Shown here in pieces: positions 1 through 3,000 of a stretch of 64,000 nt of DNA. The DNA lies in assembly GCF_057098645.1 (NCBI RefSeq), contig NZ_CM169472.1; one strand, 5' to 3'. A program made the position numbers. The first letter of the stretch is position 1. Each line of letters opens with the position of its first letter.

Positions 1-3000
1 TCCAGATCTTCAAAGGCTTTACGTACTGCCGACAGCTCCGCGTCAGTTTGTAGCGGATCTTCGCCCATAATGTACGCGGCACGCACTTCGCCATGCGCTG
101 CGCGGTGCGGCAGCTCGCTGATGCGATAGCCGGTATGCGCTGGCAGGCTTTCCACGCCCCAGGCTTTGGCGAATTTCTCGCGGTTAGCCGGATCTTTCAC
201 ATACTGGTATCCCGGATACGTATCCGGCAGCGCGCCCATATCGCAGGCACCCTGAACGTTGTTCTGACCACGAACCGGGTTAACACCCGCATGTGGCTTA
301 CCGAGGTTACCGGTCAGCATCGCGAGGCTGGTCAGAGAACGCACGGTTTCCACGCCCTGGTAGAACTGGGTTACACCCATGCCCCACAGGATGGCGGCGC
401 TTTTCGCCTGGGCATACATCCGTGCCGCCTGACGAATCTCACTGGCGCTGACGCCGGTGATATCTTCAACCGACTCCGGCGTGTAGCCTTCAACGATTTT
501 ACGATACTCTTCAAAGCCTTCTGTACGGGAAGCGACGAATGCTTTGTCGTACAGATTTTCTTCAATAATGACATGGCCCATCGCATTCAACAGCGCGATG
601 TTCGAGCCGTTTTTCAGTGCAATGTGCATGTCAGCAATGCGCGCGGTTTCAATTTTGCGCGGATCGCAGACGATAATTTTCGCCCCGTTACGTTTAGCGT
701 TAATTACGTGATTCGCCACGATTGGGTGGGAATCCGCCGGGTTGTACCCGAAAACGAACACTAAATCGGTATTATCAATTTCGTTAATAGCATTGCTCAT
801 TGCGCCATTACCGACCGATTGGTGCAGACCTGCAACCGATGGGCCGTGTCAGACACGAGCGCAGCAGTCAACGTTATTGGTACCAATAACGGCGCGCGCA
901 AATTTTTGCATTACATAGTTGGTTTCGTTACCCGTACCACGCGAGGAGCCGGTCGTCTGGATGGCATCCGGACCGTACTTCTCTTTGATGGCGCTCAGGC
1001 GCTCGGCAACGTAATTCAGTGCCTCATCCCAGGAAACAGGTTCGAGTTTGCCGCCACGCTGGCGACGGATCATGGGGGTTTTCAGGCGCGGGGTCAGGAT
1101 CTGGGTATCGTTAATGAAATCCCAGCCATAATAACCCTTCAGACACAGGGTACCCTGGTTGGTTTTCCCCTGCGCTGCCTCCGCCCGGACGATTTTGCCG
1201 TTATCGACGACCAGGTTGATTTTGCAACCTGATGCGCAATAGGGGCAAACCGTGACGACTTTTTTCATCGGTCTCGCTCCAGTTAATCAAATCACGCATA
1301 CGCGCTCTCGACTACAGTATGCATCTTTTATGCCACATTTTATTTGGGGTCATTCCCTGATATTACGGGCACTATTTATTCAAAACTCTGACGAAAAACA
1401 GGCTGTCGTCAGTTTTGACGTGACGAAACGAAATACCGCGTGACAGCCATCACGCGGCAGACATTTTATTTTTTCTCGACGACGGGACCTGCCTGATACC
1501 CGCCGCCCAGCGATTTCATCAACTGAATGCTTTGGATCACCCGGCGGCTGTCCAGCATCAGTAATGACATCTCTTCGGCAAGTACTGGCAACCGGGCTTC
1601 AGTGGCCTGTAAGCGGCTGGTTAAGCCGCGCTGATAGGCGGCCTCGGCAGCGCGCTGGGTGAAGCGCGTGGCTTCCACGCGTTCAGCCTGCATCTCTCGC
1701 TCGTCGTTGAGCGTTTGCAGACGCGTGCCGTTGACGGCAACGTCACGCACCGCGTTCAGTACTGACTGGTTGTGACGTTCAATCATCATGTTTCTGGCGG
1801 CGCGCGTGCCTTCGAGATTGGCATTCAACCGTCCACCGTCAAACAGCGGCAATTTCAGACCCGGGATGAAGTTGAACTGGCGACTGGTTTTTTTGAATAA
1901 GGTATCCAGGTGGATGGAGTCCAGACCGAAAAACGCTTTGATATCAAAGCTCGGGTAGAACAGCGCCCGCGCGGAATCCACCTGATCTAATGACGCCTGA
2001 ACATACCAGCGCATGGCTTGCAGATCCGGGCGTCTGGCGAGCAACTCATAAGAGAGTGTCGCCGGAATGCCGGTCTGGACTCGTGGTAATGCCACAGGTT
2101 TGATCTCCGGCATATCGCTGGCTCCCGCGCCAATCAATGCACGCAGAGATTCTCGCGTTTCGGTGATTTGCCCTTTGACGGCAGCAATTTGTTTATCGAC
2201 CGCCAGAATCTGTGCCCGCGCGCCGTGGAAAGGCACTTGCGCTTCCAGACCGTGCGCCACTTTACTTTGGTGCGCTTTCACCGCGTAATCAATCACATCG
2301 CGAGTTTGTTCTAACAGATCGAGCATCTGATAGCTGGCCTGCATACTGTAATAAAGCTGCGCTACGCCCGTGGTCAGCGATAGCTCTACTGCTGCGGTTT
2401 CTGCCAGCGCGGCATTATGCGCGCCAATGGCGGCGGCAACCGCTGAGCGATGCACACCCCACAAATCAAGATCCAGTCCGGCAAACAAACCGACTGTGGC
2501 TTCCGTATAGTACGGCCCGTCCATCCCCAGTGCTGGCGCATCCATTGCATAAGGGCTTAAAAAGCCGTTCGCCGAGACACGTTGGCGGTTGAGCATCCCT
2601 AACGCTGCCACCTGCAACTGTGAACCGGCATCTAACAAATCGGCCTGGGACTGCGCTTTTTCTTCCCGCAGTTTCGCTTCTGCGAGGGTGTGTGAACCGC
2701 TTAGCGTCCGCTGGATCAGGGCATCCAACTGCGGGTCATTGAGTTGTTTCCACCACTGCGCCTGCGGCCAGCCGGAGCTGGCAAGATGAATATCATCGGC
2801 CAGTTTGATTTGTTCCGGTTTGAGCTGTTGATGAGGCGCAGAATCCTTACGTACCAGGGCACAGCCGGAAATCAGCGTCGTGCTGCCGAGAATGCTGCAC
2901 AACAGCAGACGTGAAAGTTGACGATTGATCATTGCGTGGCTCCTTGTACCTGTTCCGTGGCGGGTGTTAATGCCGGGGCTGTCCAGTCTGGCAAGCGGGC

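What the first reader, a model, noticed from the sequence alone, without database searches (positions are those of the whole stretch)
800..851. Selenocysteine recoding site in fdhF
An in-frame TGA at 849-851 sits inside an otherwise uninterrupted formate dehydrogenase H reading frame and is followed by the SelB-binding hairpin. It is a textbook recoding event, but a gene caller would truncate or split the gene. It also implies the strain carries selABCD.
Basis: partly seen in the sequence, partly recalled or inferred. Interest (0 to 1): 0.4.

Follow-up and report, generated by a model that had tools for sequence, protein, structure and literature searches.

The report
Known selenocysteine UGA in E. 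coli fdhF
This is the textbook selenocysteine-coding UGA and its SelB-binding RNA hairpin in the E. coli formate dehydrogenase H gene (fdhF, minus strand); it is real, but already fully characterised and correctly annotated in public genomes.

Summary
On the minus strand, an fdhF reading frame starts at 1268 and contains a single in-frame TGA at 849-851 (codon 140). It stays open to the window edge, so only codons 1-422 of 715 are visible. The 422 residues are 100% identical to crystallised E. coli FDH-H, which has 'X' (selenocysteine) at position 140. The RNA after the UGA matches Rfam SECIS_2 (87.1 bits, gathering score 70). It carries every literature-defined feature: an 11-nt spacer, the 17-nt minimal stem-loop GGUUGCAGGUCUGCACC (821-837), bulged U17, and loop G23/U24. 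Across 56 distinct orthologous sequences the upper stem shows compensatory changes and invariant synonymous sites. The 76-nt stretch is in 5419 of 5426 complete E. coli genomes. RefSeq annotates fdhF as one unbroken 2148-nt CDS. selA, selB, selC and selD are all annotated in the closest complete genome (O145:H28 RM12761). Three caveats apply. Hairpin stability alone is not statistically unusual (z = 0.09). Modern pipelines do not split the gene. Verdict: already known, low interest.

The parts
1..1268 (-). 5' part of fdhF (formate dehydrogenase H, selenoprotein): codons 1-422 of 715. The start ATG is at 1266-1268 and the gene runs off the window start.
   Evidence: Translation. 100% identity to PDB 1aa6/1fdi/1fdo/2iv2/7z0t over residues 1-422. 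TIGR01591 Fdh-alpha scores 697 bits against a cutoff of 666. RefSeq CDS fdhF WP_001300547.1.
849..851 (-). UGA codon 140, decoded as selenocysteine (Sec140), followed by His141.
   Evidence: It is the only stop in the frame and aligns with 'X' at residue 140 of crystallised FDH-H. The literature places UGA140 in fdhF (PMC4513850).
810..849 (-). SECIS hairpin, nt 3-42 counted from the U of UGA. The Rfam SECIS_2 match spans 802-856 and adds an outer helix (852-856 pairing with 802-806).
   Evidence: MFE fold. Rfam RF01988 at 87.1 bits, gathering score 70. 92% of cells are paired across 56 distinct orthologous sequences, against 21-50% in slid controls.
821..837 (-). Minimal SelB-binding upper stem-loop, nt 15-31, GGUUGCAGGUCUGCACC, set 11 nt after the UGA. 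Bulged U17 is at 835. The GGUC loop holds G23 at 829 and U24 at 828.
   Evidence: Coordinates computed. Definition taken from review PMC8659212, which cites Liu et al. 1998. The U18-A29 pair is kept in 56/56 sequences with 6 compensatory changes, G15-C31 has 6 compensatory changes, and the apical GCAGGUCUGC is invariant, including at synonymous sites.
1320..1335 (-). Context only: a sigma-54 type -24/-12 promoter motif, TGGCATAAAAGATGCA, 52 nt upstream of the fdhF start codon.
   Evidence: It is the only match in the window, but the pattern alone is expected 1.39 times by chance. Calling it the fdhF promoter rests on position and on my own knowledge that fdhF is sigma-54/FhlA dependent. It was not tested here.

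Best explanation
Window 1-1268(-) is the 5' part of E. coli fdhF. This gene encodes formate dehydrogenase H, the Mo-bis-MGD and 4Fe-4S subunit of the formate hydrogenlyase complex. Codon 140 is UGA and is recoded as selenocysteine. When a ribosome reaches the UGA, the mRNA just downstream folds into the SECIS hairpin (nt 3-42). Its apical 17-nt stem-loop (nt 15-31; bulged U17, loop G23/U24), held 11 nt from the UGA, is bound by the C-terminal winged-helix domain of the specialised elongation factor SelB. SelB-GTP carries Sec-tRNA(Sec), the product of selC, which is charged with serine and converted by SelA using selenophosphate made by SelD. SelB delivers it to the A site in competition with RF2, so Sec140 is inserted and translation continues to residue 715. 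Shown here: the UGA, the frame, the protein identity, the RNA family match, the defining nucleotides, covariation, population conservation, and the presence of the sel genes in the nearest genome. Inferred from the literature: SelB binding, Sec insertion and its efficiency (30-40% in vivo, PMC4513850) for this exact sequence, which is identical to the one studied in laboratory E. coli.
For: The frame has a single stop at codon 140. Identity to solved FDH-H is 100%, with X at 140. TIGR01591 scores above its cutoff even for the partial protein. Rfam SECIS_2 gives 87.1 bits against a gathering score of 70, E = 8.5e-19. The 11-nt spacer, the 17-nt element, U17, G23 and U24 are all at the expected positions, as defined in PMC8659212. 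For covariation, with U17 bulged, 92.1% of cells pair, 3 pairs show compensatory change (13 cells), and the covariation score is 0.104 against 0.069 shuffled, reached by 0 of 500 shuffles; slid controls pair at 21-50%. Synonymous sites inside the apical stem-loop are invariant in 56/56 sequences, while synonymous sites outside it vary freely. The 76-nt stretch is in 5419/5426 complete E. coli genomes, identical in 5405 records including DH5alpha. A rare variant differs only at two synonymous sites outside the hairpin. RefSeq annotates one unbroken CDS. selB/selA, tRNA-Sec and selD are present in the nearest genome, and selC is in 5424/5426 genomes. That genome's SelB matches ribosome-bound SelB structures 5lzb/5lzc/5lzd and the C-terminal fragment 2pjp.
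Against: Nothing substantive. Hairpin stability on its own is not distinctive: z = 0.09 against dinucleotide shuffles, and only the 5% tail of 5000 synonymous recodings. The 3' 293 codons of fdhF and all the sel genes lie outside the window, so their integrity in this exact strain is inferred from a genome that differs by 14 SNPs in 64 kb. The 5' arm of the cross-species alignment was partly fixed by the search pattern, which limits how much covariation could be observed.
Confidence: 0.98

Rival explanations
1. The TGA is a true stop: fdhF is a pseudogene or nonsense mutant in this strain, giving a 139-aa fragment.
For: A mechanical ORF finder ends the ORF at 849. RF2 termination does compete at this codon in vivo (PMC4513850).
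Against: The same TGA is present in 5419/5426 E. coli genomes and in 112 loci from other genera. The downstream 282 codons stay open and are 100% identical to crystallised FDH-H, whose residue 140 is X, i.e. Sec. RefSeq does not flag a pseudogene.
Confidence: 0.005
2. The hairpin is a by-product of the conserved HGPSVAGLHQSVG peptide and GC-rich codon usage, not a selected RNA element; read-through would then be SECIS-independent, through near-cognate Trp or Cys tRNA.
For: MFE is no better than dinucleotide shuffles (z = 0.09). About 5% of random synonymous recodings fold at least as stably.
Against: Compensatory changes keep U18-A29 (A-U x4, C-G x2) and G15-C31 (U-A x5, C-G x1) paired even where the encoded amino acids change. 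Synonymous positions in the apical stem-loop are invariant, while those outside vary. The covariance model scores above its curated threshold. Published mutagenesis reports that U17 or G23 mutations abolish read-through (review PMC8659212).
Confidence: 0.01
3. The stop is bypassed by a programmed frameshift or is a sequencing error.
For: None found.
Against: The same frame matches FDH-H residue for residue on both sides of the stop. The sequence is identical in thousands of independent complete assemblies.
Confidence: 0.002

Closest known systems
E. coli K-12 fdhF Sec140 UGA with its SECIS (Rfam RF01988, SECIS_2), the founding example of bacterial selenocysteine recoding
   Same: The 76 nt around the UGA and hairpin are identical to laboratory E. 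coli such as DH5alpha. The spacer, minimal stem-loop, bulged U17 and loop G23/U24 are the same. The protein over residues 1-422 is the same as PDB 1aa6/1fdo/2iv2.
   Different: No difference in the element. The host is an O145:H28-like strain rather than K-12. Compared with most other Enterobacteriaceae, Arg138 is CGU rather than CGC, which gives a U-G instead of a C-G pair in the outer helix.
SECIS elements of the other E. coli selenoprotein genes, fdnG and fdoG, and Rfam SECIS_3 (RF01989)
   Same: The same mechanism: UGA followed directly by a SelB-binding hairpin with a GU-containing apical loop (general knowledge; not tested here).
   Different: The window sequence scores only 35.8 bits against SECIS_3, whose gathering score is 63, so it belongs to the fdhF-type family and not that one.
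Eukaryotic and archaeal SECIS elements (3'-UTR, kink-turn, SBP2-dependent)
   Same: Both recode UGA as selenocysteine using an mRNA structure and a dedicated elongation factor.
   Different: The bacterial element lies inside the coding sequence at a fixed 11-nt distance from the UGA and is bound directly by SelB. It therefore has to satisfy both protein-coding and RNA-structure constraints.

Membership tests
Bacterial fdhF-type SECIS (Rfam RF01988 SECIS_2) | Covariance-model score at or above the curated gathering threshold | tested here: met
   87.1 bits against a gathering score of 70, full model 1-55, window 802-856(-).
Bacterial fdhF-type SECIS (Rfam RF01988 SECIS_2) | In-frame UGA at the position of the catalytic Sec (or Cys) of a known selenoprotein family | tested here: met
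   Codon 140 aligns with 'X' in FDH-H structures and is followed by His141.
Bacterial fdhF-type SECIS (Rfam RF01988 SECIS_2) | Hairpin of about 40 nt starting directly 3' of the UGA, with a 17-nt minimal upper stem-loop (nt 15-31) 11 nt from the UGA | tested here: met
   The fold covers nt 3-42, the spacer CACGGCCCAUC is 11 nt, and the minimal element is GGUUGCAGGUCUGCACC at 821-837(-). Definition from PMC8659212.
Bacterial fdhF-type SECIS (Rfam RF01988 SECIS_2) | Bulged U17 and loop nucleotides G23 and U24 (SelB contacts) | tested here: met
   U17 at 835, G23 at 829, U24 at 828. Covariation favours the U17-bulged register, with U18-A29 paired in 56/56 sequences and 6 compensatory changes (one search compared).
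Bacterial fdhF-type SECIS (Rfam RF01988 SECIS_2) | Base pairing maintained by evolution (covariation) | tested here: met
   92.1% of cells paired, 3 pairs with compensatory change, 0 of 500 shuffles reach the observed score, and slid controls pair at 21-50%. Caveat: the 5' arm was partly fixed by the search pattern.
Bacterial fdhF-type SECIS (Rfam RF01988 SECIS_2) | Binds SelB and directs Sec insertion | not testable with these tools
   Inferred from exact identity to the sequence used in published in vivo and in vitro recoding assays (PMC4513850).
Bacterial fdhF-type SECIS (Rfam RF01988 SECIS_2) | Sec machinery (selA, selB, selC, selD) present in the same genome | tested here: inconclusive
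   None is in the window, which has no tRNA gene. All four are annotated in the closest complete genome NZ_CP007133.1, which differs from the window by 14 SNPs in 64 kb. selC is in 5424/5426 E. coli genomes.
Formate dehydrogenase H (FdhF; NCBIfam TIGR01591 Fdh-alpha; Mo-bis-MGD oxidoreductase) | Family model above its curated cutoff, and identity to the solved enzyme | tested here: met
   697.1 bits against a cutoff of 666.25 with only 422 of 715 residues. 100% identity to 1aa6_A over residues 1-422.
Formate dehydrogenase H (FdhF; NCBIfam TIGR01591 Fdh-alpha; Mo-bis-MGD oxidoreductase) | N-terminal 4Fe-4S cysteine motif (C8-x2-C11-x3-C15 ... C42) | tested here: met
   The translation reads directly MKKVVTVCPYCASGCKINL...GTLCLKG. 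That these cysteines bind the cluster is from my own knowledge of the 1FDO structure.
Formate dehydrogenase H (FdhF; NCBIfam TIGR01591 Fdh-alpha; Mo-bis-MGD oxidoreductase) | Complete 715-residue protein | not testable with these tools
   Residues 423-715 lie beyond the window start. They are intact in the reference genomes, where the CDS is 2148 nt and not flagged as a pseudogene.

The most novel reading that the evidence does not exclude
Nothing in the window departs from the known system. The only non-textbook reading my data leave open concerns other genera. In the fdhF SECIS of the Morganella/Providencia/Proteus/Hafnia/Edwardsiella group, C30 is G (His-Gln becomes Gln-Arg). That breaks the G16-C30 pair of the E. 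coli register, and the RNA is predicted to fold into a continuous upper stem without the bulged U17. This could mean that SelB in those lineages recognises a somewhat different SECIS geometry. I did not check whether this is already documented.
Probability: 0.08. Interest if true: 0.25.

Novelty: already known. Interest (0 to 1): 0.05.

Why it matters
Its practical value is for annotation quality control. A naive ORF caller would report a 139-aa fragment, so any pipeline run on this window should join the two halves and mark codon 140 as Sec, as RefSeq already does. It also serves as a positive control for the scan: the first-stage reader recognised a genuine recoding site from raw sequence.

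Tried and rejected
(1) Thermodynamic significance of the hairpin. Dinucleotide-shuffle z = 0.09, and the synonymous-recoding test puts the native fold only in the 5% tail. Stability alone does not discriminate, so I relied on the covariance model and covariation instead.
(2) The Rfam register with U18 bulged was compared with the literature register with U17 bulged. The latter fits the covariation better, with 0 rather than 4 unpaired cells at that pair.
(3) A PDB query containing 'U' was rejected by the tool and was repeated with C at position 140.
(4) A first script failed because locus files are bundled.
(5) First guesses for sel gene coordinates in RM12761 missed. They were corrected.
(6) The O145 RM9872 genome was first taken as the source. 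It differs from the window by a deletion inside phnM and an IS3 insertion in melB. RM12761 is collinear with the window but still has 14 SNPs, so the exact source strain was not identified.
(7) A literature search that included 'bulged' found only one tangential paper. The primary paper, Liu et al. 1998 (PMC147357), is not held, so the minimal-SECIS definition is cited through review PMC8659212.
(8) 8 of the 120 cross-species pattern hits were chance matches outside any FdhF frame and were discarded.

Full report
OBSERVATION. At 849-851 the + strand reads 'tca', which is TGA on the minus strand. The mechanical ORF list gives a 139-aa ORF at 849..1268(-), beginning MKKVVTVCPYCASGCKINL and ending ...NNVDCCARV at that stop. 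Translating the minus strand straight through from 1268 to 3 gives 422 codons with exactly one stop, at codon 140, and the frame continues ...V*HGPSVAGLHQSVGNGAMSNAINEI... to the window edge. And the window holds only codons 1-422 of the 715-codon gene.

IDENTITY OF THE GENE. With C substituted at position 140, the 422 residues score 697 bits against NCBIfam TIGR01591 (formate dehydrogenase subunit alpha; cutoff 666), even though the protein is partial. They are 100% identical over residues 1-422 to PDB 1aa6/1fdi/1fdo/2iv2/7z0t, 'formate dehydrogenase H'. In those entries position 140 is 'X', the non-standard residue. The first 1500 bases of the window are 100% identical to E. coli O145:H28 chromosomes, where the feature is annotated as fdhF next to mdtP. 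RefSeq annotates one 2148-nt CDS across the TGA with no pseudogene flag. Some records name the product 'formate dehydrogenase H subunit alpha, selenocysteine-containing'.

THE RNA ELEMENT. The RNA following the stop is UGACACGGCCCAUCGGUUGCAGGUCUGCACCAAUCGGUCGGUAAUGGC. It folds into a hairpin covering nt 3-42, at -14.9 kcal/mol for the 52-nt stretch. Rfam's SECIS_2 model (RF01988) matches window 802-856(-) end to end with 87.1 bits (gathering score 70; E = 8.5e-19 in the 3-kb scan and 1.8e-17 in the whole window). The related SECIS_3 model scores only 35.8 bits against a gathering score of 63.

A review (PMC8659212, citing Liu et al. 1998 and Fourmy et al. 2002) defines the E. coli element this way: a hairpin of about 40 nt; a minimal 17-nt upper stem-loop at nt 15-31, placed 11 nt from the UGA; U17 bulged; and G23/U24 in the apical loop as SelB contacts. 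I checked each feature by coordinate:
- The spacer is CACGGCCCAUC, 11 nt.
- Nt 15-31 read GGUUGCAGGUCUGCACC, window 821-837.
- U17 is at 835, G23 at 829 and U24 at 828.

IS THE HAIRPIN MORE THAN CHANCE? Not by stability alone. The MFE is no better than dinucleotide-preserving shuffles (z = 0.09; 104 of 200 shuffles fold at least as well). Among 5000 random synonymous recodings of the same peptide, it lies only in the 5% tail.

The decisive evidence is comparative. Of these, 112 sit in the context ...NNVDCCARV-U-HGPSVAGL..., and 8 are chance hits. They give 56 distinct 62-nt sequences.

On that alignment, 92.1% of cells pair in the structure with U17 bulged, against 21-50% when the 3' partners are slid by 1 to 3 columns. 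Three pairs show compensatory changes (13 cells). The covariation score is 0.104 against 0.069 for shuffles, and 0 of 500 shuffles reach it. U18-A29 is paired in 56/56 sequences (U-A 50, A-U 4, C-G 2). G15-C31 is G-C in 49, U-A in 5 and C-G in 1. These changes occur in Pasteurellaceae and Shewanella, where the encoded amino acids also change. The Rfam register, with U18 bulged, leaves 4 unpaired cells at that pair, so covariation favours the literature register.

The apical GCAGGUCUGC is invariant in all 56 sequences. That includes the third positions of the GGU and CUG codons, which the search pattern did not fix. Synonymous sites outside the helix vary freely: CCN at column 18, AAY at column 51 and GCN at column 57. 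One caveat is that columns 7-29 were constrained by the search pattern except at wobble positions.

POPULATION CONSERVATION. The 76 nt around the UGA and hairpin occur in 5419 of 5426 complete E. coli genomes and are identical in 5405 records, including the laboratory strain DH5alpha. One of the 15 non-identical records (14EC007) differs only by CGU to CGC at Arg138 and AAU to AAC at Asn154. Both are synonymous and lie outside nt 1-42.

THE sel GENES. The window has no tRNA gene and none of the sel genes. The window is collinear with E. coli O145:H28 RM12761 (NZ_CP007133.1, 4927525-4991524) with 14 SNPs and no indels, and none of the SNPs is in fdhF. In that genome the following are annotated:
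- selB at 4336550-4338394 and selA at 4338391-4339782
- tRNA-Sec at 4410466-4410560
- selD at 2158265-2159308

tRNA-Sec is present in 5424 of 5426 complete E. coli genomes. That SelB matches, over its full length, the ribosome-bound SelB structures 5lzb/5lzc/5lzd, and residues 487-607 match the C-terminal fragment 2pjp. From memory, 2pjp is the winged-helix domain crystallised with SECIS RNA.

MECHANISM. What is shown here: the UGA, the frame, the protein identity, the SECIS family match, the defining nucleotides, covariation, conservation, and the machinery in the nearest genome.

What is inferred from established knowledge and the cited papers (PMC4513850; PMC8659212): SelB-GTP carrying Sec-tRNA(Sec) binds the apical stem-loop through its C-terminal domain. 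The fixed 11-nt spacing places the complex at the A site when the UGA arrives. Sec is inserted in competition with RF2, at about 30-40% efficiency in vivo. SelA and SelD make Sec-tRNA(Sec) from Ser-tRNA(Sec) and selenophosphate. Sec140 then serves as a ligand of the molybdenum centre of FDH-H (own knowledge of the 1FDO/2IV2 structures).

RIVALS. A true nonsense mutation, a passive by-product hairpin, and a frameshift or sequencing error are each contradicted. The evidence against them is the in-frame identity to the crystallised enzyme on both sides of the stop, the conservation across thousands of genomes and over a hundred species, and the compensatory changes.

COMPARISON AND NOVELTY. This is the founding example of bacterial selenocysteine recoding, and its sequence is identical to the one studied experimentally. 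It meets every membership feature that could be tested here. The untestable ones are SelB binding, actual Sec insertion, and the C-terminal part of the gene in this strain. It is already known and already handled by standard annotation, so interest is low. The finding is a good positive control for the first-stage reader.

SIDE OBSERVATIONS are listed separately. None changes the verdict.

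Noticed in passing
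Loci L017, L039, L050, L055, L072, L077, L094, L100, L119 (Morganella/Proteus/Providencia) and L035, L042, L049, L063, L079 (Edwardsiella/Hafnia/Enterobacillus); alignment A1 columns 22 and 36: In these genera the fdhF SECIS has C30 changed to G (codons CAG CGN in place of CAC CAR). This gives a G16-G30 mismatch in the E. coli register, 7 distinct sequences in A1. ViennaRNA instead predicts a continuous upper stem (U18-A29, U17-G30, G16-C31) with no bulged U17. This may be a variant SelB recognition geometry.
   Followed up: partly
window 8790-17934: Between yjcS and yjdP lies a sugar-utilisation cluster: a response regulator, a carbohydrate kinase, a ketose-bisphosphate aldolase, a D-lyxose/D-mannose isomerase, a sugar ABC transporter and a hybrid sensor kinase. 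From memory, K-12 carries the allose (als/rpiB) genes at this position, so this looks like a strain-specific replacement island. A GNAT pseudogene fragment follows at 18075-18278.
   Followed up: no
window 20491-21627 (phnM) and 47271-48692 (melB): phnM and melB are intact in the window. In the closely related O145 strain RM9872, phnM carries an internal deletion of about 414 nt (annotated CDS 723 nt instead of 1137 nt), and melB is interrupted by an IS3-family element. The window therefore comes from a different O145:H28-like strain. The closest found, RM12761, still differs by 14 SNPs in 64 kb.
   Followed up: partly
window 35949-36114 (+): An Rfam STnc630 'sRNA' match (181.8 bits) coincides with the small ORF pmrR (36018-36107, LpxT activity modulator) and overlaps the 3' end of pmrB on the opposite strand. 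The Rfam sRNA family is probably the pmrR mRNA.
   Followed up: no
window 27650-27730 (+) and 30206-30282 (-): Two Rfam naRNA4 (nucleoid-associated RNA, REP-derived) matches lie in the phnE-phnD and yjdN-yjdM intergenic regions. They are ordinary REP/BIME-type repeats.
   Followed up: no
window 1320-1335 (-): A sigma-54 type -24/-12 motif, TGGCATAAAAGATGCA, lies 52 nt upstream of the fdhF ATG. It is the only match in the window, but 1.39 matches are expected by chance. It fits the known sigma-54/FhlA control of fdhF (own knowledge). The inverted-repeat-rich region at about 1400-1440 further upstream could hold the FhlA sites.
   Followed up: partly
window 57103-58620 (-): The lysyl-tRNA synthetase gene next to dtpC-cadA-cadB is named 'lysS' in the RefSeq annotation. 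By position it is the paralogue called lysU in K-12 (own knowledge). This is a naming quirk of the pipeline.
   Followed up: no
NZ_CP007133.1 4410466-4413211 (locus L129): Immediately downstream of tRNA-Sec in the reference genome are integrase fragments interrupted by an IS3-family element, followed by island genes. This is the well-known use of selC as an integration site for genomic islands.
   Followed up: no
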